Source of the DNA: a virus
Reading direction: 5' to 3' (one strand)
Virus record (IMG/VR): IMGVR_UViG_3300047548_000785
Span: 3,700 to 67,699 of that record
DNA length: 64,000 bases
Shown here: in pieces, positions 1 through 32,235 of the stretch
Layout: the number at the start of each line of letters is the position of its first letter
How positions within the stretch are numbered: the first letter of the stretch is position 1
Program-made: the position numbers and the translations under genes
Notes under the pieces: model-generated
Seen by the model: the letters and a program-made list of their open reading frames with translations, nothing else
Told to the model about the DNA's origin: nothing
Databases searched by the model: none

Positions 1-28
1 GCTTTTCAATTTCAAAGTAGTTGTTCAT
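1..28 (-). CDS. 5' end of a leftward gene running off the window (MNNYFEIEK...)
   Basis: ATG at 28 preceded by GAAAGGAAAACTA, the same RBS block found before the 104..259 ORF. Confidence 0.55.
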
Positions 29-81
29 TTTAGTTTTCCTTTCTTTCTTTATATTATTATTCAATCACACTTGTTTCTAAA

Positions 82-101
82 AGTCAAGGCGACACGCCGA
101 T
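82..101 (-). promoter_or_regulatory. Conserved upstream motif ATCGGCGTGTCGC next to a TTGACT -35-like box
   Basis: 13-bp GCGACACGCCGAT (+ strand 89-101) is repeated exactly at 315-327; TTGACT lies at 87-82 on the minus strand. Confidence 0.6.
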
Positions 102-103
102 AA

Positions 104-259
104 CTACGAAACTTTTTCTAACTTTTTTCCTGCTGGGTGTAGTGCCATAGCCTTGTGCAGGGGGCACAGAATATAAGTACCAACTACATTGCTAGTAGTG
201 ATAGGAACCCAAACACCACAGTCCTTGTGTCCACATTGTGTCGAATAAATCTTAGCCAT
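104..259 (-). CDS. 51-aa putative zinc-binding protein (not in the ORF track)
   Basis: Manual translation MAKIYSTQCGHKDCGVWVPITTSNVVGTYILCPLHKAMALHPAGKKLEKVS; CxxxxC...CxxH; RBS GAAAGGAAAACTA directly upstream. Confidence 0.7.
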   Translation of the reverse strand: MAKIYSTQCGHKDCGVWVPITTSNVVGTYILCPLHKAMALHPAGKKLEKVS

Positions 260-314
260 TAGTTTTCCTTTCGTTATGTATTCATTCTATATCAAGCCAC
301 TGACATTCTGGTAA

Positions 315-327
315 GCGACACGCCGAT
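315..327 (-). promoter_or_regulatory. Second copy of the ATCGGCGTGTCGC motif, upstream of 104..259
   Basis: Exact 13-bp repeat of 89-101, followed on the minus strand by a TAGAAT -10-like box and an RBS. Confidence 0.6.
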
Positions 328-470
328 GATCGAAAAAATAATTAAAAATAATTTGAACGTGGGGGGGTGTAGTGTGCGGACTAATTTTTCTTGCTTTTTC
401 TTTTCAAAACGTGTATCGTACATCTTTGCAAAATTTTGTAATTTTTGTAAAATCCAATTTTTGCAGGGTA

Positions 471-1211
471 TCACTCAACAACAAGCTTCTTGATCTCATT
501 AAGAATTAAAGCCGGAACACCAGCTTCTTCAGATACTCTATAACGTTCCTTCAAAGGAAGATTCATTCCATAACGCATAGGTGCTGCAGCATGTTCTGTA
601 GCCATAGCCAACAATTTATCATTAGCCTCATATCGCTTAAACACAATTTTCTTATCAGTCATAAACTCAACAAACATTAAAGGATCATTTTCCTTGACAC
701 TAAAATGTGTCTCCCCTTCTGGTACGTGATATTCCAAAGCCACATGCCTATACCATCTTCCAATATCAAATTCTCCAGTAGCTAAAAGTGCACCACGCAT
801 AGGAGAAAAAGCAGGGTAGTAGGGAGCAGTAAACTTAGCAACAACAGGTTCTGATGCAAACATAATCCAATTCAATGAATACGTCATAGCATAATAGTTT
901 TTAAGGTTTGAATGTCTTGTCTTCTGACATGCAATAGCAGCAGGAACCTGGTAACGATATGTTTCGGTTTCTTTAGCTTTTTCAATCTCTTCTAAATCAA
1001 AATCAAATTCTTCTGTAATGGCACTCTTAAACACGAATACATTATTCAACCTATCCTTCATTGCAGGACATCTAGTTTGATTAGCATATGGAGTCTTTTC
1101 TCCATGCACAAAGCTTAACAAGCTTTCTGGTTTGCGATAAACCATATTGTATGGTTCTCGTTCATGATCATAAGATCCAGGTGCCCAATAGACGGTAATC
1201 TCTTTGCTCAT
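471..1211 (-). CDS. Hypothetical protein, 246 aa (possibly beta-rich dUTPase/DUF6065-like fold)
   Basis: Long ORF with RBS GAGGAG; RCPA, GEFDIGRW and KENDPLMF segments. Fold guess is weak. Confidence 0.75.
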   Translation of the reverse strand: MSKEITVYWAPGSYDHEREPYNMVYRKPESLLSFVHGEKTPYANQTRCPAMKDRLNNVFVFKSAITEEFDFDLEEIEKAKETETYRYQVPAAIACQKTRHSNLKNYYAMTYSLNWIMFASEPVVAKFTAPYYPAFSPMRGALLATGEFDIGRWYRHVALEYHVPEGETHFSVKENDPLMFVEFMTDKKIVFKRYEANDKLLAMATEHAAAPMRYGMNLPLKERYRVSEEAGVPALILNEIKKLVVE

Positions 1212-1238
1212 TCTCTCTCCTCTTTTTTGCGGTATAAA

Positions 1239-1319
1239 TTATTTACCACATGTACATTGATCTCCACAGTCAGACTTGACCATAAGATCTTCTTCTAAAA
1301 AAACACATTCAGCACACAT
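1239..1319 (-). CDS. 26-aa Cys-rich micro-protein (not in the ORF track)
   Basis: MCAECVFLEEDLMVKSDCGDQCTCGK; starts 3 nt after the stop of 1323..1526 and fills the gap before 471..1211. Confidence 0.5.
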   Translation of the reverse strand: MCAECVFLEEDLMVKSDCGDQCTCGK

Positions 1320-1322
1320 GGT

Positions 1323-1526
1323 TTACCATTTTCCAATAGGACATTTTGCTTGCAGCAGGGTAGTTTTAAGTTGCATAAAACATCCACACTTTCTACACTT
1401 ATTCAAATATTTATTAAACGCAGGACATACTTTACAGATCTCTAATCTTTGCTCAATAAGTTCTTTATCTGATCTTGGTTGGTTTGGATCAAACAAATCA
1501 CTAAATTGTACGTCTCCATTTTTCAT
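1323..1526 (-). CDS. Small Cys-rich protein, DUF6171-like
   Basis: RLEICKVC...CRKCGCF...CPIGKW pattern; TGATATAAT lies 6 nt before the ATG. Confidence 0.8.
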   Translation of the reverse strand: MKNGDVQFSDLFDPNQPRSDKELIEQRLEICKVCPAFNKYLNKCRKCGCFMQLKTTLLQAKCPIGKW

Positions 1527-1631
1527 ATTTCAATTATATCAGGTTTGAGCTGTTCGGAAATTCCGAATAGTTGGTTTGGCAAAAGTTTCGCGGTATCAAA
1601 CCATCTCTGATGGTGTTTGCGAAGCAAACAA

Positions 1632-1698
1632 ATAACCCCTCATGATCGATCATAGTATTTATATAATCATCCTCGACCTATGTCGTATGAGGGGCTAT
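1632..1698 (-). ncRNA. Candidate structured small RNA (three-way junction)
   Basis: 12-bp closing stem plus two inner hairpins, directly downstream of a TTGACA-N16-TATAAT promoter; G-U wobbles form only on the minus strand. Confidence 0.55.
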
Positions 1699-1704
1699 AT
1701 AACC

Positions 1705-1732
1705 ATTATACACCTTTTGAACGGTTTGTCAA
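1705..1732 (-). promoter_or_regulatory. Consensus sigma70-type promoter, leftward
   Basis: TTGACA (1732-1727), 16-nt spacer, TATAAT (1710-1705). Confidence 0.7.
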
Positions 1733-1756
1733 TATACGAGGTTTATAATTATATAT

Positions 1757-2308
1757 ATGATTGCTAGGATAGTTATTGTCATATTAACGGTTTTGGGGGC
1801 AACTACCGTAATAGTTCCTCGCAGTACCCCCGAACCTTCTCAAACAACACCTGCCAACATGTGTGTGCTTCGGGAAAGAGTCGAGATTATTCCAAATACC
1901 ATGGTTTGGCCAGTATCTCCTACAGAAATAACATCACCATTTGGAGATCGTCCAGAATTACCTTTCGGATTTCACTATGGTTTAGATTTTGGGACAGGAT
2001 GGAGTGATCCTATTCCTGCAGTTATTGGAGGTACTGTTATTTTCGCAGGTTGGAGTTATGGCAATGAAATTCGTATTCAGAATGGTCAATACACATATCT
2101 TTACGCACATCTCAGTAAAATTGACGTAGTTGTAGGTCAAGAAGTTGCAATGGGTGAAATAATCGGTTTATCAGGCTCTACAGGGCTTTCGCTAGGTCCT
2201 CACCTGCATTTAGAAATCTGGGATAATGGAGTACCTATAGATCCGTATCCTATTCTTGTAGCACAAACAGAGGTTAAGAAGAATGTCACAGAAGAAGTAG
2301 TGTGTTAA
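1757..2308 (+). CDS. M23 family metallopeptidase with N-terminal signal/anchor
   Basis: HYGLD (HxxxD), YAHL and PHLHLE (HxH) motifs; hydrophobic N-terminus. Confidence 0.9.
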   Translation: MIARIVIVILTVLGATTVIVPRSTPEPSQTTPANMCVLRERVEIIPNTMVWPVSPTEITSPFGDRPELPFGFHYGLDFGTGWSDPIPAVIGGTVIFAGWSYGNEIRIQNGQYTYLYAHLSKIDVVVGQEVAMGEIIGLSGSTGLSLGPHLHLEIWDNGVPIDPYPILVAQTEVKKNVTEEVVC

Positions 2309-2310
2309 GT

Positions 2311-2527
2311 ATCTTTACATATAACAGCCTATATGTAAAAATAATCGCAAAATCTTTACATATAATGTGTGCGTTCATACACATTTTATCTGTTTAGGGG
2401 GGCTAAACTACTGCTTTAGGCCAAAAAGTGTGCGTTCGTGCACATTTAAAATCAGTACGATAGTTCCGAATACCGATAAAAGTTGGTGTAAAACAACAAT
2501 AATTGGTCTAAATCAGCACGATCGTTC
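2311..2527. repeat. Chain of three adjacent direct-repeat pairs with palindromes
   Basis: ATCTTTACATATAA at 2311 and 2352; 23-mer at 2364 and 2425 (20/23); 18-mer at 2449 and 2510 (16/18). Confidence 0.75.
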
Positions 2528-2547
2528 TCATTTAGCTTAAATAAGGT

Positions 2548-2589
2548 TTAGCAGTTGCAGCAAATACCGCAGTCTTCACATTCAATCAT
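2548..2589 (-). CDS. 13-aa Cys-rich micro-ORF MIECEDCGICCNC
   Basis: 5 of 13 residues are Cys; TACAAT lies 5 nt before the ATG. Very short, so chance cannot be excluded. Confidence 0.35.
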   Translation of the reverse strand: MIECEDCGICCNC

Positions 2590-2757
2590 ATTTTATTGTA
2601 TTCCCCGTATTCAAACATATGGAGGTTTGTTTATAGGGGCTATACTTCTCGCCGCGACTTTAGGTCCCCGAACTTTACCGCCGAAGCAATGTGTGTTTAT
2701 CTTAGTTATCAACATGTTGTGTATAACTTTTAAAAAGCACACTATAATAGATATATC

Positions 2758-3081
2758 ATGACTTGGCAAGAATGGGTTCCTCTCACCGTAGGTATCATAG
2801 CGATTATTACAGCACTCGGAGGTTTTCTAAGATATGTTATTAAAAACTTTTTACGTCAAGAACTTCATATAATCAAGCATGAACTTCAGCCTAATAGTGG
2901 TAAGTCTATTAAGGATCAAGTTACCAGGCTAGAAGAAACACAAAAAATAATGAAAATGGAACAAGACGATCATATTAAAACTCAACGTGAAGAAGAAAAT
3001 AAAATCGAACATCGAATCGATAAAATTGAAAAGAAAATTGATCGTTTATACGAGATTGTTATCCAAAAGCTCGGTAACTAA
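2758..3081 (+). CDS. Single-TM membrane protein with coiled-coil tail (DUF2746-like, possible lysis accessory)
   Basis: N-terminal TM helix, PNSGKSIKD motif resembling the NGGSSLRD motif of actinophage membrane proteins, heptad-like C-terminus. Confidence 0.75.
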   Translation: MTWQEWVPLTVGIIAIITALGGFLRYVIKNFLRQELHIIKHELQPNSGKSIKDQVTRLEETQKIMKMEQDDHIKTQREEENKIEHRIDKIEKKIDRLYEIVIQKLGN

Positions 3082-3198
3082 TATATATCTATATACCTTA
3101 TATCTTAATATCTTAGTTTGCTAGGTATTCTTCTTTCTTATATTATTAATATTATACACATAAGTTCATCTTCTTGATACAAAAAATAGATATTTTTA

Positions 3199-3256
3199 TG
3201 TAACAATTGTGTAACATTTTGATTACAAACATGTAACGTTATAATTATGTTATAAT
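3199..3256 (+). promoter_or_regulatory. 11-bp-period GTAAC repeats followed by extended -10 TGTTATAAT
   Basis: GTAAC at 3200, 3211 and 3233, ATTAC at 3222; TGTTATAAT at 3248-3256. Confidence 0.5.
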
Positions 3257-3263
3257 TTATTTG

Positions 3264-3318
3264 ACTACTACCTAGGTTTTCTCTCTCTCATACCCACTTC
3301 CTAGGTAGTAGTTTTTTT
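3264..3318 (+). ncRNA. Candidate hairpin small RNA / terminator with 23-nt pyrimidine-rich loop
   Basis: Perfect 13-bp stem ACTACTACCTAGG/CCTAGGTAGTAGT, T-run after it, and an extended -10 ending 7 nt upstream. Confidence 0.5.
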
Positions 3319-3391
3319 ATTTATAATTTTTTACCTGATATAATAATATAAGAAGAGAAGTCTTCGTTAACTGATAGGAAGTGGAATAAAA

Positions 3392-3484
3392 ATGGCTACT
3401 AAGTCAAATAAAAGAGACAACATGAATACGCCTGATGATGAATGGCTACCTGTTGGATATGATGCAGAAGAGGTCAACAAATGA
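3392..3484 (+). CDS. 30-aa peptide overlapping the endolysin start (ATGA)
   Basis: MATKSNKRDNMNTPDDEWLPVGYDAEEVNK; AGGAAG/GGA upstream; its stop overlaps the ATG at 3481. Confidence 0.5.
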   Translation: MATKSNKRDNMNTPDDEWLPVGYDAEEVNK

Positions 3485-5226
3485 GTTTGTGGTGGCCTGT
3501 AGATAATGTTAGAATTACTGGTGATTTCGCTGGATGGCCAGAGTTTTATTCGAAATATGGAATGAGAGGCCACAACGGAATTGATATTGGTGTTGGTGTA
3601 GGTACCCCAGTCTATGCCGCCGAAGCTGGCGTTATTCATTTTGAAGGATGGGGAAATAATAACGGATGGATGGGATCATCTGCTGGTATCTGTGTACTAA
3701 TTCGTCATGGCTGGGGTTACACTGGATATGCACACCTTTCTGAAACCCTTGTCAACAATGGTCAAAGTGTAGCAAAGGGTCAGCTTATTGGAAAGTCTGG
3801 TAACACTGGTCTTTCTACTGGTCCACACCTTCACTTTGAGACACTACCCCCAAGTCCAGACTGGAAAAATGGTTTTGCTGGTCGTGTAAACCCACGTAAT
3901 TATGGAATTGAGGCTCGTGGATCAAGTGGCGGTGGTGGTGCAATGACAGCACAACAGCGTCAGGTAGGCAGCGAACCAGTTAATCGTCGCCTAGACCCAA
4001 ATACTTCACGTGCACCTATTCCAGAGCAACTTGCTCCAGGTGACGTAGGAAACTTTAATGGATGGATTCGTGGAGAATCTGTTAATGGAAATAATGTTTG
4101 GTTCCGTGGTATTTCTGGAAACTGGTTCTGGTCTGGAGGATTTACCTCACAGTCTACAGCTGGTCTTACAGATCTTAATCCTGCACCAGCACCAGCACCT
4201 ACAAACCCAGCAGAAAGAGTTGTTGGAAGCGTTTCTGTAAGAAAACGTCCTACGCCTGCAACCTCCGGTGCTATTCTTGGAGAAATTCCTGCAAACACTA
4301 AGGTTGTTTTTGATGGATGGGCTGCAGGAGAAACTGTTGATGGAAACAACTTGTGGTATCACTCAGCAGAAGGATGGTGGTCCTGGTCTGGTGCATACAC
4401 CAAAGTTGCAAAGGATGGACTTAAGGATATGACTCCTAAGCCAACTCCAACACCAACGCCCACACCGACTCCAACGCCAACTCCTACCCCAACACCGAGT
4501 GGTCGTAAGCCAGTAAGTCAAACAACTCCAAACTGGGATATGAGTAGTTCAGACGCTCCGTCATCTTATCCAAGACCTACGGCAAAGAAAAGCAGTATTG
4601 TTTTCCCGTCTAACATTGTAGAACGGAAAGATCCTGCCAGTCCAAATGGATACACTGTTGGTCGTCCAGATCCTAAAGGTCCAAACCATATTGTTTTGCA
4701 TCATGCAGCGACAACTTCGTTATCTGGAGCAATCAATACTTTGCGAGGTACTAATGGTGCACCTACTGCAAACTATGTTGTTAAAGATAATGAGCTTGTA
4801 TCTATGGTTTCCGAAGAAGATACAGCGTGGACAAATGGCAGGTGGACATCTAACACATACTCAGTTACATTTGAAATGATTAATGAGTCTGGTTCTGGAT
4901 CAACATGGCAGCCACCATCAAAGGCTACATGTGAGACAACGGCATGGGCAATGGCAAGAGCAGCACAGAGATGGAATATTGAGCTACCACTCGAATATGG
5001 CATCAATGTGTTTGGACATAAAGATGTTTCAAAATCTGCGACAGCTTGTCCAGGAAATCTAGATGTAAAAGCGGTTGTAGCAAGAGCTAATGAAATTATC
5101 AAAACTACTCCAGCACCTACACCAACACCTAGTAATAATACCGACAAAAAGAAAATTGCAGATGCTCTAGATATTATTCAAGATAAAATTGGTGAAATTT
5201 CAAGCATTCTACGAGAAGAGAAGTAA
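3481..5226 (+). CDS. Modular endolysin: M23 peptidase, two SH3b-like repeats, Pro-Thr linker, Amidase_2
   Basis: HNGID/YAHL/PHLHFE; two GExVxGNNxW repeats; IVLHH...FE...GHKD...ACPG zinc amidase motif; directly upstream of a holin. Confidence 0.92.
   Translation: MSLWWPVDNVRITGDFAGWPEFYSKYGMRGHNGIDIGVGVGTPVYAAEAGVIHFEGWGNNNGWMGSSAGICVLIRHGWGYTGYAHLSETLVNNGQSVAKGQLIGKSGNTGLSTGPHLHFETLPPSPDWKNGFAGRVNPRNYGIEARGSSGGGGAMTAQQRQVGSEPVNRRLDPNTSRAPIPEQLAPGDVGNFNGWIRGESVNGNNVWFRGISGNWFWSGGFTSQSTAGLTDLNPAPAPAPTNPAERVVGSVSVRKRPTPATSGAILGEIPANTKVVFDGWAAGETVDGNNLWYHSAEGWWSWSGAYTKVAKDGLKDMTPKPTPTPTPTPTPTPTPTPTPSGRKPVSQTTPNWDMSSSDAPSSYPRPTAKKSSIVFPSNIVERKDPASPNGYTVGRPDPKGPNHIVLHHAATTSLSGAINTLRGTNGAPTANYVVKDNELVSMVSEEDTAWTNGRWTSNTYSVTFEMINESGSGSTWQPPSKATCETTAWAMARAAQRWNIELPLEYGINVFGHKDVSKSATACPGNLDVKAVVARANEIIKTTPAPTPTPSNNTDKKKIADALDIIQDKIGEISSILREEK
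4441..4497 (+). repeat. (Pro-Thr)9 linker with varied codons
   Basis: CCN ACN tandem units inside the endolysin. Confidence 0.9.
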
Positions 5227-5237
5227 GGAGGAGGATT

Positions 5238-5573
5238 ATGTATTTGTTTACAAAAGATTTTTGGACCTATGCTTTTGAGCGTATGGTAAAAACTATTGCT
5301 CAAGCTGCGATTGCTCTTATCACTGCCGAAGCTTTCGGTCTTTTTGACGGACAAGCATGGCTTAATGTTGCATCTGTAGCAGGTATGGCAGGAATTGTTT
5401 CTGTTCTTATGTCGCTACAATCATACTCAGCAGTCAACAATGATGCTGACATGAAAGCACTAGAAGCTACAGTTGCTAGAATGACGCAAAAGGCACAGAT
5501 TGTTGAGTCATCTGCACAAGCAATTAAGTCTGGTGCTGCAGGAGTAGAACTTCCTACAGACGCTAAGGGTTAA
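5238..5573 (+). CDS. Holin, r1t-like
   Basis: FWxxAxERxVKTxAQ motif and two hydrophobic helices; RBS AAGGAGG; follows the endolysin. Confidence 0.88.
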   Translation: MYLFTKDFWTYAFERMVKTIAQAAIALITAEAFGLFDGQAWLNVASVAGMAGIVSVLMSLQSYSAVNNDADMKALEATVARMTQKAQIVESSAQAIKSGAAGVELPTDAKG

Positions 5574-5587
5574 TTTGATCTAAAAAT

Positions 5588-5620
5588 GTGGGGGTAGTTT
5601 TTACGACTGCCCCCACTTTT
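5588..5620 (+). terminator. Intrinsic terminator after the lysis cassette
   Basis: GTGGGGGTAGT / ACTGCCCCCAC stem followed by TTTT. Confidence 0.85.
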
Positions 5621-5638
5621 ATCTGTTATAATTAAAAT

Positions 5639-6328
5639 ATGGCATTTCCAGGTACATACGACATTAATTACTATCGAGGAGATACATTCGAGTTTAGAAT
5701 TTATCCACGCGATAACAGTGGTGAAGCATTTAGCCTTCAAGGATATTTGCCACCATATTTTACTATTGCTAATGCCAAAGGAGATGCTGCTACTGTAATT
5801 AAAACAGGATATGCAGAAATTGTTTCCAATGAATATATCAAATGTGCTATTACACCAGATATTGGCAATGAACTAGTTGCTGGAACACAATATGTTTATG
5901 ACGTAGAAATTGCTAAGCCAGGGACCGACTACAACTATATCTACACACTGCTTAATGGTAGAGTAACCGTCTTCGAACAAGTTACTGATAAGCCTATTCT
6001 TACTGCACCAGTACCAATCTCAGATATATTCTTTAGCGAAATTCCAAATGGATTTGCAGGGGCATGGTCAAACCCATCTACTGGAGATGCTCCAACTACA
6101 TATACTATTTCACTTTCACCTTTACCTAACTTCTTGCCAAGTGCTACTTTCACATTTACACAGGCAGCAGTTCCTGGCCTACTGGCAAACACTGCAGCAG
6201 CTATATCTTCTCCAGCCTTCCCACTGATTCCTGGCACAACATATTATGTTAAAATTATTGGTTCTAATGCTGCAGGATCATCCGCAGCCTATATTGAGCC
6301 ATATGTATATGGGGCAGTTACATCATAA
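5639..6328 (+). CDS. Virion protein, BppU-N-like Ig domain plus C-terminal FN3-like domain
   Basis: YYRGDTFEF...YVYDVEI...LLNGRVTV; WSNP...LIPGTTYYVKI...NAAG. Confidence 0.7.
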   Translation: MAFPGTYDINYYRGDTFEFRIYPRDNSGEAFSLQGYLPPYFTIANAKGDAATVIKTGYAEIVSNEYIKCAITPDIGNELVAGTQYVYDVEIAKPGTDYNYIYTLLNGRVTVFEQVTDKPILTAPVPISDIFFSEIPNGFAGAWSNPSTGDAPTTYTISLSPLPNFLPSATFTFTQAAVPGLLANTAAAISSPAFPLIPGTTYYVKIIGSNAAGSSAAYIEPYVYGAVTS

Positions 6329-13179: not shown

Positions 13180-16100
13180 ATGGCAATAATAACTTATCTT
13201 AGCAACAATTCAACGCCTGATTCTGGTAGTTCTTGGGCCTCTAGCAACGTTTATTCACTATGGTATCCAAACGTTGCTGTTGCCGCTGCACACGATGGTA
13301 CATTTCCAATTTATGTAAATTATGCTGCTCTTAAAATACGTTCAAATGTTTCTTCACCAGCACTTATTACATCTCTTTTGTTAAAAAATAATACTAGTAC
13401 CTGGTTATCAGATAATAGCCCAACAGCACCATACAGCACAACTACAACATCTGAAATTGGTTTTGGTTTTAGCGATGTTGTTTTTCTTAATACTGATGGC
13501 TCTTTAAAGGTTGAAGTTAATTCAAGTGCTCCGCCCTCACTATACTTTAATACCGCATCGGTTACTGGTGCTGCTATCAAAAATGCAACTACAGATGCTA
13601 CTATTTTTTCAGATAAAACTATTTTCGGATATTTAAACTATATTGCTGTACCCTCTTCACCAGGAATTACAAATATATCTAATATAACAAATGATGGATT
13701 TTCTTTTAAAGTTTCTGTTCCCTCTTTTACAGGGGGTGAATCTATTAATGGATATCGTATTCAAATAGCAACTGACACAGCATTTACACAAAATCTTCAG
13801 ACTCAAGATATAAGTTATGATGGAACAAATACAACAGTTAATGTAACTGGTAAAAATCCAAATACTAGATACTACATTAGAGCTTTTGCAAAAAATCCAT
13901 TGTGGAGTTTTGCAGGTAAAGGATCTCAGTGGTCTAATACTGCAACTGTTCAGACAGCAATCTATCTCCCAACATTTTCAGATAGTTCAATTGTTTCAAG
14001 TGCCTATACTGGATTGTCGTACTCAGATCAGGTTACTGCCACTTCCAGTGCTTTAGCTGGATCAATTACTTATGCAGCAACTGGACTACCAAGTGGTCTA
14101 TCTATTAGCTCTTCTACTGGAGCAATTACTGGTACCCCAACAACAGTTGGTAATTCAGCAATTACATTTACTGCAACAAATACAGATGGACAAACAGTAA
14201 GTCCTACAAGATATCTTTTTATTACAGATTCAGCAACACTTTGGTTTGGTCCCAACCTTTTAGATACGGCAAAAACTGGATTAAACTATACTGCAAATGT
14301 CTATGCTTTTAATGCTACCTCATACTCCGTATCTACTGGTCAATTGCCAAGCGGTATATCATTAAATACAACAACTGGAGAAATATCTGGAAAGACTTAT
14401 GACATTGGCAGTTTTACTTTTGACATTACCGCCAACATTTCGACAGACGGTGGTTCTGGATCTATTACAAAAACATTCACCATGACTTCTGAAAAGTCTA
14501 ACGTTTCCGCTGGTCTCGTATCAACACCATCAAATCTTTATGCAGAACGTGTTTATGCAGAGCAGCCATTAGCACTTTGGTCTATGGATGAAAACGTAGA
14601 TTATATTTCTAAAATCTCTGAAAATCAACGAGACATGGCACAGAACTGGGATGTTCTTAATGGAGATGCGGCAGAGTTCAGTGATGTAACATTTACACCA
14701 CCAATGGCAAGTATGATAAATATGGTTACGGTTCCAGACTACGAGGAAAGTCCAGACGCAGTTCTTGAAGCTACCAACTTAGTAACTAATCCATCGATGG
14801 AAACAGGTGGAGCCAGCGGTATTGTAATCAGGGAAAATCTTATTCAAAACCCAACAATGGACGGTATCGTTCCAAGTTCTTCTCAGTCAATAGCAACTAA
14901 TTTAGCTACAAACCCCAACATGGTAACTACATCTGGAACCACCACTATTCGTGAAAACCTCCTAGCAAATCCATCTTTTGAAAAGGTTGCTAATGGAACA
15001 GATATTGTTAGGTCAAACCTTATTAGCAATCCTAGTTTTGAATTAAATACAAGTGGTTGGACAAACTTAGCAAATACTTTGTTATCAAGAGTTCCTGATA
15101 ATTCTATTGTTGGATCTTATGTAGCAAAACTAGAGGCTACTGCAGGTGGTACAGGATCTAATTTTTTTGCCGCCAACACAGGATCTGCTCTCAATTTAGT
15201 AGATCCTGATAAAACCTACACATTTTCTGTATATGTAAAATCAACAACAGCAAAAACAATTGGAATTCGTCATGCTTGGGTAGATGCCTCTCAAAATGTA
15301 ATTGGAAGTATTAACACTTTTTCTGCAACTAGCTTGTCTGCAAATACGTGGACTCGTATTTCTACAACTCAAACTGCCCCAGAAAATGCATACAGAGTTT
15401 CTGTTGGAGTTATTGGTAGTGCATCAGAGTCTTGGGCACCAGGAGATATTATTTATATAGACGGAGCAATGCTTGAAGACAGCCTTGTTGCTACAACTTA
15501 TTTTGACGGCAGTCTACAAGATTCTTTATCTGAGTATTATTCATGGACTGAAACAGAGCACAACTCTCCATCAATTCAAACAGCTCAATTAGTTACAACA
15601 CTAACAAATATTGCACCTAACCCAAATATGGCAGAAACTGATGGGGTAGTTGATGTTAAGCGTAATCATGCAAATAATCCAGTTGCAAAGTATGTTGGTG
15701 GGTCAGTGGACCCAGCTAAGCAAGTTTCAAGAACAAACCTCGTAGCCAACTCAAGTTTTGAAACAGTAACAATAGGCTGGCAAGCAATTGGAACCGCAAC
15801 ATTGGCTCCTGATGGCGGTCAGTTCTTTGATGGACTGTCATCAGCCAAGCTAACATGTTTAGCAGTAGGTGACGGTATCGAACAAGTTCTTGGTGAAAGA
15901 CCTACTGTATCTCCAAACACACCATATACATTGTCTGTATATGTAAAGGGTGAAGCTGGAAAAAAGGCTATCTTGTTGCTGGATTGGTTTGATGCAAGCG
16001 ATACTTATATCAGTCAAGTCAGCAGCTCTTCCTACACTATGACTGGTGATTGGCAAAGAATGTACTTTTTTGGTGCAATATCACCAAATAACGCAGTTAC

Positions 16101-19100
16101 AGCAAGTATCAATGTTAGAAATTTAACTTCTGGTGCACACACATTTTATCTAGATGCAGTCTTATTTGAAAGTAGTCGCATATTAGAGCCATATTTTAAT
16201 GGAAATACCACCGATCAGCTAGGTTTTGAGTATGTTTGGGCCGACATAGAAAATAACAGTGTTTCTAGACAGCTATCAGAGCAAATAGTAATTAAAGAAA
16301 ATAAAATTTACAATCCATCATTTGAAAATGGTTTCTTTGGTTGGTCTGATGTTGGTATAAACTTCTACGGGTTTGAACTAAGTTCTGATGTAGCACCTGG
16401 GCTTTCTACAAAATCACTTCAAGTAATTGCAGGTGCAAACTCAGGTCTTAAGAATCTTGGAATTCAGGCACTACCATCAACTCAATACACTTTTTCTGCC
16501 TGGATTAAAGGTCCTGCTGGAAAAACATCTATATTGGGTGTACGCTACTATGATAGTTCAATGACCGAACTAAGCTCTCCCTTCCCTAACTTTTCTTCCT
16601 CTATTCCATTTACAGGAGATTGGCAAAGAGCATACTTTACCTTTACTTCTCCAGCAAATACTGCATACGTAGAACCAGAAATTCAGGTACAGGATATATC
16701 ACTAACAACATTCTACGTTGATGATGTGATGCTTGAAGAAGGAAGTACTCTTAATAATTACTATGATGGAAACAGTGTTCCTAGCGAAGGGTTGAGATAC
16801 AAGTGGAGTGATGAAATTAATGATAGTACTTCTATTATGTACGCACTTCCAGCCAAAGGATTTGACTGCTCAGGAACTCAAAGCATAATGTATGCATCTA
16901 ATGATGCTACAACAGAAAGTTTTGCACGGTATTATGCCACAAGTACCCACAACAATATTATTGAAGTTGGAGCAGTATCGGGTCTAGCTATTGGAACACA
17001 ATACTTGTTTAAGGCACAAGTTAGATCATCCACATCACGCACATTTGACTATTTAATTGGTGCAAATGGACAAGTTAGCGTTGCACTAGTTCCATATACA
17101 TGGAAAGAAGTTAATATGCTATATACTGTATCAGCAACAAATACAAATGTTCAGCTAACACTTCCAAGCATGGTTGCCGGAGAAACGTTTGATATTAAAG
17201 AAGTTCTTGTTGAAAAAACATCTGGATTCTCACGGCCATACTTTGACGGTGATTTTGTATCCACAGACTCAGACCTTACATATGGTTGGAGAGGCGAACC
17301 ACATGACTCTAATTCAGTACTTTTGGGAGCTAAAGTATATGGTGTTGCAGATGACAATGGACTTGATATTCGTGCATTTAGATCAGAAGCATGGTCTGCA
17401 AATGGAACAAGGTCTTTGCGAATTATTAACTATGGCGGATTTAATAATGATGGTATAACAATAGCTAGTGTCGATCAAACTACATATGGATCGTTAAATA
17501 TTCCACAGCTACTTCCAGGTAAAACATATACGGTAAAGGCGGTAGCTAGACTAAATGGTACAGTATCTGGATCTACATATTCTCGAAGCATCTGTTTTGC
17601 AACTGGATCAACTATTGTTTCTTATGTACAGGCACCAAATACTATTGGAACACACGAGCTTAGTCTTACATTTACAGTACCTGCCGATTCTACCAACCAC
17701 AGAATATTTTTAACTAGCTCTGGATATAATAATCCATACAACTATGATATGTGGTGGGATAAGCTGTTGATTGTTCGTGGAGAATATGATGGACTATACT
17801 TTGATGGAGACACAGCAAATGAAGAAGATCGATACTATTCTTGGGCAGGGGAGCCAAGCAAGAGTGTTAGTTATAGGCAGGGACTTGGACTTTATGGTTG
17901 GACTGGCGTAAATGCTGCACCAGTTTATGAGCTAGGACATTCACGATCAGGAACAGCATCAGCATTTATGCGTGTATCAGACAACGTTGAATACCCACGA
18001 ATGACTAGTGACAATGTCCCTGTGCTTAGTGGTTTTTCATATTCTGCCTCAGCATACATGCAATTGGCATCAGATACCAATTCGCGTATCAGCATTGACT
18101 GGAAAGATTCTGCAGGTGTTTTAATTTCACGTTCAGAAACATCAATTGCCACTTCTCCTACAGGAAGAATTTCGGTATCTGGAGTTGCTCCAGATGGTGC
18201 TACTCAGGCATCAGTTTCCCTAGGGTTTGATGATGGAACTATTGCGTCAACTCAGCTCAGTTTTGACGACGTTTTATTTGAACAATCCCCAACTATTAAT
18301 AGTTATTTTGATGGAGATTCGCTATCTGTTGATGGTCTAAGTGAAGGCACAATTGACTGGTCTGGTGATGACCATGCTTCATCATCTACAGTTATTGAGG
18401 CTGGAATAAATGATTTTAGCTCTATTTTAGGAAAAACATCTACATACTCCATTTCATCAGTTGATTTTAGTGGTGGTAAAGCTGCAAGGGTATTTCTTAG
18501 ATCATCATCTCAAACAGACATAGCAGTAAATACAGTTAATACTACTGAAGGCAATACTTATACTTTATTGATAAAAGCAAGAGCTAATTCAAGATCTCAA
18601 ATAGTATATCCACAGATTAGTGGAGACGTTGGTGATCCTGTATTGTTGCAACAAGGTGTATGGACTGAGATTAGAATGATTGGAACAGCGGTTACTGGTG
18701 CTACAGAAACAGTTGGATTACGTCTATTAAATTCTATGGGTCATCAATTTGGAGACACAATTGACATTGATTATGCAATGGTTGTTGATGGAGAATATTA
18801 TAATGGATACTTTGATGGCTCTATATCTAATTCTGAACTAGACGGAACTGTATCTTGGTTTGGAACACCAAACAATAGCATAAGCACACTAAGTGGACCA
18901 GAAATTTATTTTTGGAATGGCTATAATGGTGGAATTGTATCAAGCTCAAGCACAGTAAGCAATGATAGCGGATATTCTGCTCTAGTCTTAACAAGTGCAT
19001 CAGATGAGGGTATTACATCTTCTCCAATGCCTACAGTTATAGGTGAGCCATATACATTCTCTGCATATATCTATGTGAAAAAACAAGAAAACGTTACAAT

Positions 19101-22100
19101 TCAAATTGATGAAGCTTCAAGGCAGGTAGTGGTACAACCAAATACCTGGACCAGGGTTTCACATTCACGCATAGCCTCAAGCACTACGCATACAGTACGA
19201 CTCTTACTTGCTAACGGTGGCGGTATTATGTTTGTTGATAATGCACTATTTGAAAAGGGTTCCTCTGTACTCAGCTACTTTGATGGTGAGACAACCAATC
19301 CAGATGCCGACTTAGAGTATGACTGGTCTGGTACTGCACATCAATCATCAAGTACGCTTTCTGGTACCGCAGTGGCTGGCTATACAAATAACGGAAGTGT
19401 TGCACTAATCCAATCTTCGGTTTGGGATTCAACAGGAAGCAAATCTATGAGAATGGTATCGCTTTCAAAATCTAATGAATCTGGTACTAGTGGTGCTCTT
19501 TATAACATAAGTACTTTGACTAATGGTAAGAAGTATACGGCAATGGTTAAGTATAGACTAACATCCCCACTCGTTGGTGATAAAAATCCAGAATATCTAA
19601 CATTGCGTGCTGCTAATTCGAGTGGAACGACAGTTGTTCGCACATCAAATGGATCAAATACAACTGGAGTACACGAGCTGAAACTTGTATTTACAAAAAC
19701 ATCAGAGATTACGGCAATACATTTATCTAGCGGTGTAGGGTCTGGTGCTGGAACAGTATGGTGGGACGACTTCTTAATTGTTGAGGGCGAATACAATGGA
19801 ACATATTTTGACGGGGACAGCGTAGACTCTGAAGTTATTGGTGAAAATGTTTTTGAATGGACTGGTACACCACATGCTTCTGCTTCTACAAAATCAATAC
19901 TACAAACAAGTTTACTAACAACAATGGTTAGCCCTTCGCTCGGATCTGTTGAAGACTTCAATGCTGAGATGGAATCAATTGCTTTTTCAGCATGGATATA
20001 CCCATTTGCAAGAATTATCGATGCCTATATTGGATACAGATATACAGACGTGAACGGTATCGATATCGAACATATTCAAAAATTTGATATTAATCAGCAA
20101 GATACCTGGAGCTTAATTTCCTATTCGTTTAAACTACCAACACAGTTTACAAATCTAAGAATGGTAATTAAAACTCTGGTTGCCCTTCCCACCAAAACAC
20201 CAACCACAGATAGCTACAAGTTCTTGGTACATGGAATGACAGCTGGACAATGGTCTGAATCATTCTTTACACGTTCTTTAGGAGCTACCGTTCAAGAACT
20301 TACAGATGAAATTGCTGTTTCTGGTACTGGAGTTTTTGCTAATGCATATGGTTTGCAACGGAATAATGGATATTATATGGCATACGATAACCGATTGGCT
20401 GCTCGTAATACTGGTATTCCAATGGTATATGGTGCTACAAATAGTACTAAGATTACACCAGCACCAACTGCTGGGGACCCATCATTTGTTTTTCCAGGGC
20501 TAGGTTTTATGAATGCTTCTGGACAGTATGCAAATCTTACATTAGAGTTGTGGCTTAAAATTCAGTCTTCAGCAACTCAACCAAGAAGAATATTGGGACC
20601 AGTAGCAGAAGGATCAACAGACGGACTATACGTTAATGATGGTCTTTTAGTTCTTAAAGTTGGAGAAAGTTTTGACTCCTACTTTATTAAAGAATGGGAT
20701 CGACCAATGTTAGTTGCAATTAAGCTAAAAGGTGATTCAGCACTACTATCAATTAATGGTGAAGAAGTTATTAGCTTAACGCTAGATCCATCGCAAGTGG
20801 AATTTCCAACAGAATTTATTACAATAGATAACGTAATCAAAAAACAAGACTTTATTGGTATTTATGCATATGAAGATGTGCCATCAATTGAGATTGACTG
20901 TATTGGAATTTATCCATATATTGTTCCAGATATTGTTGAAAAGCGACGTTTTGTCTACGGCCAAGGTGTAGATGTTCCAGAAGCAATTGTTGGATCTGGA
21001 TCAGACTCAACTGTTACTATTGATTATCCAGTTGCAAACTATGCAAAAAATTATCTATATCCAGATATTGGTAGATGGAACCAGGGTATTAACGAAAACC
21101 TAGAAATTAACAATACATCTATTAGCTCACCAACCTATGAACTACCAACACTATTCTTTTCTAATGAGTCAGAGTCTTCGTGGTACTCGGATATTGAGTC
21201 AATCCAAGTTTCTGGTCTAGAGCCATTTATTAATCTTAAACCTAATGTACTTTATGATGAAGCAGTAAGTGTTTGGGATAATACCGAAGCATATATATTA
21301 TTTGATTCAATTAGTACTTTGTCACAAGATCTTGAAGCTTTTTATGGTATATTTATGCCAAACTATTCTGCTGGTGTCAAGCAAACGCTTTTCTTTATAG
21401 AAGATGAAGAGTCGAGCAATTACTTTGAGATATTTATTAATGAAGACAATGAAATTGTATATGAGTTAGCAGTTGCTAATTCTGATACTGCCGGTGGGTA
21501 TGACAAAGAAGTTATTTATACATATCAATCAGAAGAGAGTACTATGATTCCAGTCGGAATTAATATTGATAGTTTTGCAAATACTTATGGCGGAAACGTT
21601 CTTGACTTCTTTGGCAAAGTGTCAACACTTAAGTTTTATGTTGCAGGAAGTCGGTTCCTTGAAAACACATTTGATGGAAACATTGTTTCTGTTGGATTCT
21701 GTACAGCTCGAAACCTACAAAAAATTCTAAGTCTATTCAATACAAATGGAACTATTATGACTTTGGAAGACTACGAGTCTGATGTACGCTTGTATGATGG
21801 TGGTAATGTTGTTACAACAATTTGGGAGGCAACAGTTGATGCAGGTAACACATTCTTTGGATCATCGTCTTCTGGATTTATTTCAATAGTAGACGGTGGA
21901 AGCCCATTTGGTATTCTAACAACTGCTGCTCAACGTCATACCGCTAGCTATACCTTATTGCCTAAGAACTACCTTGGCAAGTTTATGCTGGATATTGCTA
22001 CTAATGGGTACTGGCAAGACCATGTACCATTGGGATATTTTGGTAAATATGTAAATGCTGGTGATGGAACCGAATATTATGAATTAGATTTCTTGCAGTT

Positions 22101-25390: not shown

Positions 25391-25457
25391 ATAAAAATAG
25401 TGTATAATAGTAACAAAACTATAACAATGCATAAAAAAGGGTATATAATAAAGTAGT

Positions 25458-31531: not shown

Positions 31532-31545
31532 GCTATAATAGAATG

Positions 31546-32235
31546 ATGGCAACTAAAGTTTATGAAACAAAATATATTACATTATTAGATAATGCTTCTA
31601 TTTGTTTGACACCATTAAAAATAAAATATTTAAGAGAATTCATGGTAGAGTTTGAAAAACTTAGAGATGCCACATCTAATGAAGAGACTATCGAACAACT
31701 AGCTTATTGTGCTTTAATATGTATGAAACAGTTTAGGCCAGACATTGTTTCCTTAGAACAACTTGAAGACATTACCGATATAGAATTGCTTTATGACATT
31801 ATTGAGTTTTCTGCTGGTGTTAAACTTAGACAGCAACCAGAGATAAAGGAAGAGTCAGAATCAAAAGAACAAGAAGGTGATGTTTGGGAATCGCTAGATC
31901 TTGCCAAATTAGAGGCAGAAGTTTTTATTTTGGGTATATGGAAAGATTACGACGAGCTAGAAACATCACTGTCAATGCCCGAATTAGTAACAACGTTGAG
32001 TGCAAGACGAGAACTAGATTATGAAGAAAAGAAATTCTTAGCCGCCATGCAGGGGGTAGATCTTGACAAGAGTTCTGGTAAAGAAGAAAAGAATGCCTGG
32101 GAGGAAATGAAGGCAAGAGTGTTTAGTAACGGACAGGCAGCCAGCTCAGACGACGTTCTTGCTTTACAGGGTGTTAATGCTCAAAAAGCTGGTTTTGGTA
32201 TTGGAATGGGCCTTGACTACCAAAAAATTAGCTAA
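31546..32235 (+). CDS. Tail assembly chaperone, long (GT-like) form
   Basis: First ~95 aa align with 32288..32605; C-terminal extension with W...ELE..LSMPEL. Confidence 0.75.
   Translation: MATKVYETKYITLLDNASICLTPLKIKYLREFMVEFEKLRDATSNEETIEQLAYCALICMKQFRPDIVSLEQLEDITDIELLYDIIEFSAGVKLRQQPEIKEESESKEQEGDVWESLDLAKLEAEVFILGIWKDYDELETSLSMPELVTTLSARRELDYEEKKFLAAMQGVDLDKSSGKEEKNAWEEMKARVFSNGQAASSDDVLALQGVNAQKAGFGIGMGLDYQKIS

What the first reader, a model, noticed from the sequence alone, without database searches (positions are those of the whole stretch)
1632..1732. Candidate novel three-way-junction RNA behind a perfect consensus promoter
Seen: TTGACA-N16-TATAAT points left into DNA with no ORF. 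The transcript would start at about 1698 and fold as P1 AUAGCCCCUCAU/AUGAGGGGUUAU (12 bp), P2 CGAC-AUAG-GUCG, and P3 GAU-GAUUAUA-(7-nt loop)-UAUGAUC-G-AUC, then UUGUUU. The P1 and P3 wobble pairs are G-U only on the minus strand, matching the promoter direction. The downstream gene has its own promoter, so this is probably not just a leader. I do not recognise the fold as tRNA, hammerhead or a known riboswitch.
Basis: partly seen in the sequence, partly recalled or inferred. Interest (0 to 1): 0.7.

Follow-up and report, generated by a model that had tools for sequence, protein, structure and literature searches.

The report
Conserved promoter-plus-hairpin small RNA unit
A perfect bacterial-type promoter in a freshwater phage starts transcription right at the foot of a long RNA hairpin that related phages also keep, so it is probably a small phage RNA of unknown job, but it is a plain hairpin, not a three-way junction.

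Summary
TTGACA-16-TATAAT (1732..1705, minus strand) is the only 12/12 promoter in the 64 kb window.

Four homologues were found, from three further lineages: L010, L071/L077 and L096. All keep the promoter, exactly 6 nt between the -10 and the first paired base, and a 12-bp closing stem.

The conserved fold is one imperfect 20-bp hairpin with a variable 20-23 nt loop. It pairs in 80 of 80 cells and has 3 compensatory pairs. All its wobble pairs are G-U on the promoter's strand.

A U-rich tail follows. The next gene has its own extended -10 promoter 5-6 nt before an ATG with no Shine-Dalgarno.

Best reading: a self-contained unit giving a roughly 70-80 nt hairpin RNA by partial intrinsic termination at the head of the early arm. 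Rivals are a 5'-end stabiliser or leader, and a put-like or attenuator element.

There is no Rfam match. No expression data exist. Only four lineages are known. Interest is moderate.

The parts
1727..1732 (-). -35 hexamer TTGACA, followed by an invariant AACC
   Evidence: It is TTGACA in window, L010, L071 and L077, and TTGCCA in L096. Mean pairwise identity is 0.92 for the hexamer and 1.00 for AACC.
1705..1710 (-). -10 hexamer TATAAT
   Evidence: The relatives have TATACT (L010) and TACAAT (L071, L077, L096). Spacers are 16, 17, 18, 18 and 17 nt. In run X3 the spacer gains a net 1 nt in three contigs, and no hexamer change is listed.
1698..1698 (-). Predicted transcription start, the first base of P1
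   Evidence: Inferred. There are exactly 6 nt between the -10 and P1 in 5 of 5 sequences, although those 6 nt are only 53% identical. It has not been mapped experimentally.
1687..1698 (-). P1 5' arm, AUAGCCCCUCAU
   Evidence: All 12 pairs are kept in all sequences. Two pairs change on both sides (C-G to U-A). Two change on one side through G-U.
1678..1685 (-). Inner stem 5' strand, CGA+CAUAG (the A at 1686 is unpaired)
   Evidence: It pairs with 1655..1651 and 1649..1647. All 8 of 8 pairs are kept in all sequences. One pair is compensatory (A-U to G-C) and one is G-C to G-U.
1656..1677 (-). Variable terminal loop, 22 nt here and 20-23 nt in relatives.
   Evidence: Mean pairwise identity is 0.47. 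All hairpin changes listed for X3 contigs fall at 1658-1674. In the window the three-way junction is -26.4 against -25.1 kcal/mol for the hairpin.
1644..1655 (-). Inner stem 3' strand, CUAUG-A-UCG, plus the 3-nt AUC internal loop
   Evidence: The bulged A and the AUC/AUU loop are present in all 5 sequences.
1632..1643 (-). P1 3' arm, AUGAGGGGUUAU
1618..1631 (-). U-rich tail, UUUGUUUGCUU and onward; with the paired UUAU it forms a terminator-like tract
   Evidence: T-tail scores counted from GGRG are 3.51, 3.43, 2.69, 2.69 and 3.20. The 95th percentile on this strand is 2.52 and the 99th is 3.42. Neighbouring clear terminators score 3.9-4.6. The tail sequence itself is only 48% identical.
1615..1629 (-). 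Small hairpin or palindrome, GUUUGC-UUC-GCAAAC
   Evidence: It is identical in L010. One X3 contig shows a double change at 1618 (T>G) and 1626 (A>C) that keeps the pair. It is not clearly kept in L071 or L096.
1600..1614 (-). Hairpin ACCAUC-AGA-GAUGGU, followed by the conserved UUGAUACC (1599..1592)
   Evidence: L071 has a different hairpin (AAUCAG/CUGAUU) at the same place before GAUACC. L096 lacks it.
1553..1567 (.). Perfect palindrome TTCGGAAATTCCGAA at the -35 position of the next promoter; a candidate regulator site
   Evidence: Related copies occur in L071:470-520. Its function is inferred.
1533..1541 (-). Extended -10 TGATATAAT of the DUF6171 gene, 6 nt before the ATG, with no Shine-Dalgarno (leaderless arrangement)
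1323..1526 (-). DUF6171 gene (67 aa), the first gene of the leftward arm
   Evidence: Pfam PF19668 at 2.7e-9 and phrog_13558.
1757..2308 (+). Divergent M23 peptidase gene; its ATG lies 25 nt from the -35 hexamer
   Evidence: Pfam PF01551 at 1.3e-26.

Best explanation
This is a self-contained small transcription unit of about 100 bp.

A near-consensus housekeeping-sigma promoter fires leftward. This step is inferred from sequence and conservation. The transcript begins at the first base of a roughly 67-nt imperfect hairpin. This step is inferred from the fixed 6-nt distance to the -10.

The hairpin, shown by comparison, has these parts:
- a 12-bp closing stem;
- a 1x3 internal loop;
- an 8-bp inner stem with a bulged A;
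- a 20-23 nt loop that is free to vary.

The four G/C pairs at the stem's foot are followed by UUAU plus further U-rich sequence. A substantial share of polymerases would therefore terminate there. The product would be a very stable RNA of about 70-80 nt whose two ends are paired to each other. The rest would read through into the early arm. Both outcomes are inferred.

The genes downstream do not need this promoter, because each has its own, often leaderless, promoter. What the small RNA does is not known. The strongly conserved stem sequence and bulges beside a free loop suggest that the stem is recognised by a protein or by RNA polymerase. It does not look like an aptamer or ribozyme.
For: Promoter. 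It scores 12/12 and is unique in the window. It is kept in 5 of 5 sequences while the spacer is 55% identical. The spacer length drifts between 16 and 18 nt, and is 17 nt in three X3 contigs.

Fixed 6-nt gap to P1 in 5 of 5 sequences.

Hairpin.
- 80 of 80 cells pair.
- 3 pairs change on both sides and 3 on one side through G-U.
- Slid controls pair in 30-50% of cells.
- 8 of 500 shuffles reach the observed percentage paired or the covariation score (the rows were window, L010, L071 and L077).
- L096, found later, shows the same 20 pairs by eye and by MFE.
- The covariance model scores 71-77 bits for L071, L077 and L096, which were not in the model.

Strand. The promoter strand is more stable than the opposite strand in 5 of 5 sequences, by 2.3-8.4 kcal/mol.

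Unit boundaries. blastn conservation against L096, L097 and L099 runs 1628/1632 to 1732/1734, which is exactly from the -35 to the end of P1.

Tail. It is U-rich in all sequences despite 48% identity.

Independence from the next gene.
- An extended -10 sits 5-6 nt before the ATG, with no Shine-Dalgarno, in window, L010, L071 and L096.
- The distance from the hairpin to the next ORF varies from about 67 to about 205 nt.
- TATAAT-N5-9-ATG sits at 6 called ORF starts in the window.

Setting in L071 and L096. The unit is the last of a tandem row of small promoter-RNA-terminator units (tRNA-Trp and two unknown RNAs). One of those ends in a similar two-tier hairpin with an 11-nt loop and a strong U-tract.

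Literature. [quoted passage not shown]
Against: - There are no expression data of any kind. The start, the end and the termination efficiency are all inferred.
- The tail is weaker than clear terminators in the same phages: 2.7-3.5 against 3.9-4.6. In L071, L077 and L096 only 4-5 of the 10 nt after P1 are U.
- The loop of 20-23 nt is far larger than in textbook terminators. The simple terminator scan did not call it.
- Stems are 86-94% identical while neutral parts are about 50%. That is more sequence constraint than a terminator needs.
- Only four lineages are known. L071 and L077 are near-identical, so the covariation count is small and has no formal significance test.
- No complementary target for the loop was found in the phage DNA held.
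- The element is absent from 78 of 80 other phage loci carrying DUF6171, so it is a lineage-specific accessory.
Confidence: 0.5

Rival explanations
1. 5'-terminal stabiliser or leader. Most transcripts read through. The hairpin sits flush with the 5' end and protects a long early mRNA from 5'-end-dependent decay (RNase E/J, RppH). The mechanism would be that of the ompA or SP82 5' stem-loops, which I recall from memory.
For: - The hairpin starts at the predicted +1 in 5 of 5 sequences.
- The U-tail is weaker than in neighbouring terminators.
- Few terminator-like sites occur further left: 2 minus-strand candidates in 5.5 kb, against 4.2 expected for both strands together.
- The whole 177-nt leader is highly structured, with z -5.51.
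Against: - The next gene has its own leaderless-type promoter and no Shine-Dalgarno. A read-through RNA would therefore translate it poorly.
- Sequence and length between the hairpin and the next ORF are not conserved across lineages.
- The other early promoters of this arm carry no such hairpin. I judged this by eye.
Confidence: 0.22
2. Cis-acting regulator of elongation. One form is a promoter-proximal terminator that a phage factor must override, as lambda Q does at pR'-tR'. The other is a put-like RNA that binds the polymerase that made it and makes it resistant to terminators.
For: - The place and size match putL, which is about 70 nt, lies just downstream of the early promoter PL, and pairs from nucleotide 3 of the transcript (PMC9378689, passages seen).
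- The stem sequence and bulges are conserved far above the neutral level, as expected for a surface that docks on a protein.
Against: - put has two stem-loops. Here only one hairpin is conserved.
- There is no excess of terminators downstream, and the arm has many internal promoters.
- The genes to the left look like early genes, not a block that needs switching on.
- There is no Rfam hit.
Confidence: 0.12
3. DNA-level element. The long imperfect palindrome would be an operator, an origin, or a single-strand initiation site in the divergent control region, and the RNA fold would be incidental.
For: - It lies between divergent gene arms, among other palindromes at 1553-1567, 1600-1614 and 1615-1629.
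- Compensatory changes keep a DNA palindrome as well as an RNA stem.
- Stem sequence is highly conserved.
Against: - All three variable non-Watson-Crick positions are G-U on the promoter strand, which makes them A-C mismatches on the other strand.
- The opposite strand is less stable in 5 of 5 sequences.
- The asymmetric bulges (A opposite AUC, and a bulged A) are conserved.
- The distance to the promoter is fixed.
- The arms are 43-44 bp apart, which is unlike an operator.
Confidence: 0.07
4. One reading: a three-way-junction RNA with a ligand-binding or self-cleaving core.
For: In this genome the three-way junction is the MFE fold, and P2/P3 pairs hold about 0.84-0.90 probability in the ensemble.
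Against: - P2 pairs in 68.8% of cells and P3 in 62.5%, with no compensatory change.
- 4 of 4 homologues fold as a single hairpin.
- The listed X3 changes hit the P3 5' strand and the P2 closing base with no listed partner change.
- The junction and loop are the least conserved part.
- There is no Rfam ribozyme or riboswitch hit.
Confidence: 0.03

Closest known systems
Short promoter-proximal phage RNAs ended by an intrinsic terminator: lambda oop RNA, lambda 6S / Stx-phage StxS from pR'-tR' (recalled from memory), and the '5'UTR-derived ncRNA candidates' of virulent Pseudomonas phages (PMC10914365, passages seen)
   Same: It has its own strong promoter and a hairpin plus U-rich tract within about 80 nt. 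It sits in front of genes that do not depend on it. The product would be about 70-80 nt.
   Different: The transcript would consist of the hairpin alone, with no single-stranded 5' seed region. No antisense target was found. The tail is weaker and the loop much larger than in those examples. Nothing is known about expression.
HK022 putL RNA (PMC9378689, passages seen)
   Same: It is a structured RNA of about 70 nt that begins within 1-3 nt of the start of an early-promoter transcript. Its stems carry conserved bulges.
   Different: put has two stem-loops in a V shape with a triplex. Here there is one conserved hairpin. No sequence likeness was tested, because no put model or sequence was held. 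No need for antitermination is seen downstream.
Canonical intrinsic (Rho-independent) terminator
   Same: The stem foot is G/C-rich. An A-rich 5' flank pairs with the first U's. The tail is U-rich in all lineages.
   Different: The stem is an interrupted 20 bp and the loop is 20-23 nt. It starts at +1 of its own promoter, so it ends no upstream gene. Its stem sequence is conserved beyond what pairing needs.
5'-terminal stabilising stem-loops of mRNAs (E. coli ompA, B. subtilis phage SP82; recalled from memory)
   Same: The hairpin is flush with the predicted 5' end.
   Different: Those elements act on the downstream message. Here the downstream gene has its own promoter, and the linker is not conserved.
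phi29 pRNA, a three-way-junction RNA made from an early promoter (recalled from memory)
   Different: There is no Rfam hit of any kind in the window. The junction is not conserved. The phage is a siphovirus-like genome of roughly 100 kb with a tape-measure protein, not a phi29-like virus.

Membership tests
Intrinsic terminator | Stable G/C-rich stem immediately before the tail | tested here: met
   There are four C-G pairs next to UUAU. The hairpin scores -22.8 to -25.9 kcal/mol in 5 of 5 sequences.
Intrinsic terminator | U-tract directly 3' of the stem | tested here: inconclusive
   T-tail scores are 2.69-3.51, all above the strand's 95th percentile of 2.52. They are below the 3.9-4.6 of clear terminators nearby.
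Intrinsic terminator | Short loop (3-8 nt) and a continuous stem | tested here: not met
   The loop is 20-23 nt and the stem has a 1x3 internal loop and a bulge. The simple scan did not call it. A neighbouring unit in L071 does use an 11-nt loop with a two-tier stem.
Intrinsic terminator | RNA 3' ends at the U-tract | not testable with these tools
   No RNA run holds the stretch.
Stand-alone phage sRNA (oop/StxS type) | Own promoter, conserved | tested here: met
Stand-alone phage sRNA (oop/StxS type) | Base-pairing target for an exposed region | tested here: not met
   Complementarity of the loop to the phage DNA held is no better than for shuffled loops. Between 26 and 96 of 100 shuffles reach the observed score. 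Host genomes were not testable.
HK022 put RNA | Two adjacent stem-loops of about 70 nt just after an early promoter | tested here: not met
   Place and size fit. The two-stem form (P2+P3) exists only in the window and is not conserved.
HK022 put RNA | Read-through of downstream terminators in cis | not testable with these tools
   This needs transcription assays. No excess of terminators is seen downstream.
Riboswitch or small self-cleaving ribozyme (three-way-junction types) | Conserved junction or loop nucleotides and a conserved multi-helix fold | tested here: not met
   Interior identity is 47% against 86-94% for the stems. P2 and P3 are not kept. There is no Rfam match.
tRNA / tmRNA / tRNA-like | Cloverleaf recognised by ARAGORN or the Rfam tRNA model | tested here: not met
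   The same tools do find tRNA-Trp beside the element in L071 and L077.
5'-terminal mRNA stabiliser | Hairpin within 0-2 nt of the 5' end | tested here: inconclusive
   The geometry fits in 5 of 5 sequences, but the start site is predicted, not mapped.

The most novel reading that the evidence does not exclude
The unit is a new family of phage small RNA in freshwater, probably actinobacterial, siphophages. It would be a closed hairpin RNA whose near-invariant stem with fixed bulges is a docking surface for a host or phage protein, such as RNA polymerase, an RNase or a defence sensor. Its fast-evolving 20-23 nt loop would set specificity. The RNA would act as a decoy, an anti-defence RNA, or a host-directed antisense RNA made from the strongest promoter as soon as the DNA enters the cell.
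Probability: 0.2. Interest if true: 0.6.

Novelty: new member of a known kind. Interest (0 to 1): 0.38.

Why it matters
If the unit makes an abundant early hairpin RNA, it adds a non-coding player to the take-over phase of a large group of uncultured freshwater phages. Small RNAs of actinobacterial-type phages are almost unexplored.

It also offers a compact, portable promoter-plus-hairpin module with built-in comparative data for studying three things:
- how a terminator-like hairpin works when it starts at +1;
- how 5'-paired RNAs escape decay;
- whether such RNAs dock on polymerase, as put does.

If it is only a leaky terminator or stabiliser, it is ordinary phage gene-expression punctuation.

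The practical gain here is the corrected structure and a covariance model (R1) that finds the family.

Tried and rejected
Known RNA families. Rfam at gathering level over the whole window gave 0 hits. Rfam by E-value over 1500-1800 gave 5 weak hits, all far below gathering scores. L071 and L010 gave only tRNA-Trp. ARAGORN found no tRNA or tmRNA.

Close relatives in GenBank phages. There was no match for 1-6000 in near mode or 1500-1800 in distant mode.

IMG/VR scans.
- Exact P1 patterns gave 0 hits.
- The downstream-hairpin pattern gave 0 hits.
- The M23 protein gave 0 relatives.
- The 246-aa protein gave 7 distant loci with different gene order and no element.
- The inner-stem pattern gave 4 loci. 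One of them (L098) is a chance match in coding DNA.
- The promoter+P1 pattern gave the same 3 true loci.

GTDB genomes. The pattern gave 6 matches. None scores with the model: the best is 16.6 bits at E 0.23.

Paralogues. Model R1 finds only the element itself in the window and in the 67.7 kb record. The record behind L010 is not held, so it was not searched.

Expression. No RNA holder is listed among 13 runs. The four runs laid are DNA contigs.

Antisense target. The first script timed out. The rewritten test found nothing above shuffled loops.

Small ORF from the AUG at 1653 (39 aa). Counterparts of 26, 20, 20 and 17 aa exist. I rejected it as a gene for these reasons:
- the lengths and C-termini differ;
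- there is no Shine-Dalgarno and no promoter in front;
- its variable codons change the amino acid, and each change is compensated in the non-coding 5' arm.

The P1 arm as a repeated motif. With up to 2 mismatches there are 6 matches against 4.3 expected. Only the two arms themselves are close.

Earlier notes of this scan were not open to the session.

Papers. A search for 'DUF6171' found 0 papers. A five-term search on phage small RNAs listed 17 papers, and I read passages of two. Supplementary tables, such as Table S7 of PMC10914365 with the 29 ncRNA candidates, could not be seen and might hold closer analogues. I make no claim that the element is absent from print beyond these two searches.

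Full report
SETTING

The window is bases 3700-67699 of a 67.7 kb IMG/VR virus record rated 63% complete. The record carries:
- a portal, a head protease and a capsid-like protein;
- a 2886-aa tape-measure protein;
- a 3404-aa protein with carbohydrate-binding and Ig-like domains;
- a DnaB-like helicase and a large DNA polymerase.

The portal is 47% identical to that of Streptomyces phages of about 131 kb. The DNA is held by freshwater metagenome runs. From these facts I infer an actinobacterial host. This is not shown.

Everything left of base 1732 is transcribed leftward:
- DUF6171, 67 aa, at 1526..1323;
- a 246-aa protein at 1211..471;
- then many small ORFs, each behind a repeated promoter-like motif.

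Everything right of 1757 is transcribed rightward: an M23 peptidase, a small membrane protein, an M23+amidase lysin and the structural genes. The finding therefore sits in the divergent control region, at the head of the leftward arm.

THE OBSERVATION

It holds. TTGACA-16-TATAAT at 1732..1705 scores 12/12. It is the only perfect match in 64 kb. The chance expectation is 0.09, and 9 of 100 shuffles gave one.

MFE is -26.4 kcal/mol, z is -3.73, and 0 of 200 shuffles fold as well. The opposite strand gives -20.5.

Stability alone would not single it out. Among 25,568 windows of 81 nt it ranks 40th after GC adjustment, and it is the 15th distinct locus.

It matches no Rfam family and is not a tRNA or tmRNA.

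RELATIVES

GenBank phages hold nothing similar.

A metagenome scan with the neighbouring M23 protein gave one syntenic contig, L010, at 61% protein identity.

A scan with DUF6171 gave 80 phage loci. A covariance model built from window+L010 (R1) found the element in 2 of them, L071 and L077, at 71 bits. These two are near-identical contigs of 95 kb. The other 78 loci and the 7 distant loci L002-L008 gave nothing below E 0.4.

A pattern scan based on the inner stem added L096 at 76.7 bits. Matches in GTDB genomes were chance.

In addition, contigs of an unrelated aquatic run (X3) cover 1630-1743 at about 90% likeness.

In all, there are four lineages with sequence in hand, plus one seen only as a list of differences.

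WHAT IS CONSERVED

blastn conservation against L096, L097 and L099 runs from 1628/1632 to 1732/1734. That is exactly from the end of P1 to the -35 hexamer, with unalignable DNA on both sides.

Mean pairwise identity by region among the four lineages:

| Region | Identity |
|---|---|
| -35 hexamer | 0.92 |
| AACC after the -35 | 1.00 |
| -10 hexamer | 0.81 |
| Spacer | 0.55 |
| 6 nt between the -10 and P1 | 0.53 |
| P1 arms | 0.86 |
| Inner stem strands | 0.94 and 0.88 |
| Terminal loop | 0.47 |
| Tail | 0.48 |

The gap between the -10 and the first paired base is exactly 6 nt in 5 of 5 sequences. This puts the usual start position on the first A of P1.

Spacers are 16, 17, 18, 18 and 17 nt. 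In X3, three contigs each gain a net 1 nt in the spacer, and no hexamer change is listed.

Selection on the hexamers and on the geometry, but not on the sequence between them, is what a working promoter predicts.

THE STRUCTURE

RNAalifold on window+L010 returns one long hairpin, not a junction. It consists of:
- P1, 12 bp;
- an unpaired A;
- CGR paired with YYG;
- a bulged A;
- CAUAG paired with CUAUG;
- a 3-nt AUC/AUU loop on the 3' side;
- a 20-23 nt terminal loop.

Counted on window, L010, L071 and L077:
- all 80 cells form standard pairs;
- 3 pairs change on both sides: two C-G to U-A in P1 and one A-U to G-C in the inner stem;
- 3 pairs change on one side through G-U;
- slid controls pair in 30-50% of cells;
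- 8 of 500 shuffles reach the observed pairing or covariation score.

L096, found afterwards and not in that count, shows the same 20 pairs.

They pair in 68.8% and 62.5% of cells, and no pair changes on both sides.

By MFE, 4 of 4 homologues fold as the single hairpin. Only the window prefers the junction, by 1.3 kcal/mol (-26.4 against -25.1), holding roughly 84-90% against 10% of the ensemble.

The X3 differences listed inside the hairpin all lie at 1658-1674:
- six substitutions;
- an inserted base after 1667;
- an inserted base after 1658 or after 1660;
- a deleted base at 1674.

These all fall in the terminal loop of the hairpin model. Under the junction model they fall on the 5' strand of P3 and the closing base of P2, with no partner change listed. 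That table is truncated ('32 more are not shown'), so it is supporting evidence only.

STRAND AND MOLECULE

All three variable non-Watson-Crick positions are G-U on the promoter's strand. The promoter strand is the more stable in 5 of 5 sequences, by 2.3 to 8.4 kcal/mol.

Together with the conserved asymmetric bulges and the fixed distance to the promoter, this favours an RNA over a DNA palindrome. Three sites is thin evidence, though.

WHAT FOLLOWS THE HAIRPIN

The tail is U-rich in every lineage although its sequence is not conserved.

Carafa-type T scores from the last G are 3.51, 3.43, 2.69, 2.69 and 3.20. The 95th and 99th percentiles on this strand are 2.52 and 3.42. Obvious terminators in these phages score 3.9-4.6.

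The first four tail bases (UUAU) pair with the AUAG/AUAA at the 5' end, as the A-tract and U-tract of many terminators do.

Further downstream, the window and L010 share two small hairpins at 1615-1629 and 1600-1614, and a UUGAUACC block. One X3 contig carries a pair-preserving double change at 1618/1626. L071 keeps only part of this and L096 almost none.

THE NEXT GENE

The candidate that the scan reports at 1533..1505 has its -10 inside the ORF and cannot serve.

Instead, TGATATAAT at 1541..1533 lies 6 nt before the ATG, and there is no Shine-Dalgarno. The same arrangement precedes the first ORF after the element in L010 (TGATATACT +6), L096 (TGATATAAT +6) and L071 (TGATATAGT +5). In L071 it also precedes DUF6171 itself. 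By eye it is common among the 80 DUF6171 loci.

In the window, TATAAT-N5-9-ATG coincides with 6 called ORF starts. These phages therefore use leaderless messages. The gene after the element does not need the consensus promoter, and a read-through RNA would present its ATG internally without a ribosome-binding site.

The distance from the hairpin to that ORF ranges from about 67 to about 205 nt.

NEIGHBOURS IN THE OTHER LINEAGES

In L071, L077 and L096 the element is the last of a tandem row of small units in the same direction:
- promoter, tRNA-Trp(CCA), terminator;
- promoter, a structured RNA of about 150 nt, terminator;
- promoter, an RNA of about 75 nt, terminator;
- then the element.

The third unit ends in a two-tier 14-bp hairpin with a bulge and an 11-nt loop before a strong U-tract. 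Long, interrupted terminator hairpins are therefore in use here.

In the window and L010, an M23 peptidase gene on the other strand takes the place of that row.

MECHANISM

I commit to a self-contained unit. Host polymerase starts at about 1698. The nascent RNA closes P1 over the pre-folded inner hairpin as the 3' arm emerges. A good share of complexes release in the U-rich tract at 1618-1631. The product is a 70-80 nt RNA with both ends paired, and the rest of the complexes read on.

- Shown: the conservation of the promoter, the geometry and the hairpin, and the strand bias.
- Inferred: the start site, termination and stability.
- Unknown: what the RNA does.

The loop has no better complement in the phage DNA held than shuffled loops have. 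Observed best scores are 26, 21, 26, 26 and 22, against shuffled means of 23-28. Between 26 and 96 of 100 shuffles reach the observed value. Host genomes could not be searched.

The high sequence conservation of the stem and its bulges, beside a free loop, hints at recognition of the stem by a protein or by polymerase.

RIVALS

- A 5' stabiliser or leader for read-through mRNA. It fits the flush 5' hairpin and the weak tail, but not the independent leaderless promoter or the unconserved linker.
- A put-like RNA or an attenuator overridden by an antiterminator. putL is also about 70 nt and begins at nucleotide 3 of the PL transcript (PMC9378689, passages). However, put has two stem-loops, and there is no excess of terminators downstream.
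- A DNA-level palindrome. The G-U bias argues against it.
The comparison argues against it.

VERDICT

The three-way junction is a peculiarity of this one genome. It is a new member of a known kind: promoter-proximal hairpin or small RNAs of phages. Interest is moderate. The evidence rests on four lineages, and there are no expression data.

Noticed in passing
window 1524-1541(-), 1744-1759, 2743-2760, 5627-5641, 25444-25460, 31534-31548: TATAAT sits 5-9 nt before the ATG of six called ORFs, with no Shine-Dalgarno visible at the two I read closely. The same arrangement precedes DUF6171 in many of 80 related phage loci. This looks like widespread leaderless mRNAs, which would fit an actinobacterial host (portal 47% identical to Streptomyces phages).
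   Followed up: partly
L009 (record bases 1-4000; window 1-330), minus strand: A promoter-like motif, TTGACAATGTCAGTGGTT...TAGATT, is repeated at least 8 times. One copy sits before almost every small leftward ORF. The conserved TGTCAGTGG in the spacer may be a regulator site.
   Followed up: no
window 1553-1567: A perfect palindrome, TTCGGAAATTCCGAA, sits at the -35 position of the DUF6171 promoter. Related copies occur twice in L071:470-520 and near window 2461-2480. It is a candidate operator.
   Followed up: partly
window 1615-1629: The palindrome or hairpin GTTTGC-GAA-GCAAAC is identical in L010. One contig of run X3 has a double change at 1618 and 1626 that keeps the pair.
   Followed up: partly
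window 2309-2757 and 3082-3391: Two long non-coding stretches of 450 and 310 nt. The first is conserved with L010, L096 and L097 in blocks, and parts occur at about 99% likeness in runs from other habitats. It holds repeated ATCTTTACATATAA boxes and two similar hairpins (TGTGCGTTC..ACA).
   Followed up: no
L071:680-1143 (also L077, L096:2200-2700): A tandem row of small transcription units lies just upstream of the element: tRNA-Trp(CCA), a structured RNA of about 150 nt, and an RNA of about 75 nt. Each has an extended -10 promoter overlapping the previous terminator. The two unknown RNAs have no Rfam match.
   Followed up: partly
window 1534-1653(-): A mechanical 39-aa ORF starts at an AUG inside the hairpin. 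Counterparts of 26, 20, 20 and 17 aa exist in the relatives. I judged it non-coding.
   Followed up: yes
window 89-101, 314-326; L009 2576-2617, 3363-3404: A repeated GTCAAG-N-CGACACGCCG box lies upstream of several leftward genes. Similar TCGGCGG...ATAGAGATACC boxes occur in many DUF6171 loci. Its meaning is unknown.
   Followed up: no
window 13180-23394: A 3404-aa ORF with three CBM_4_9 stretches and He_PIG Ig-like domains, probably a giant fibre or adhesin.
   Followed up: no
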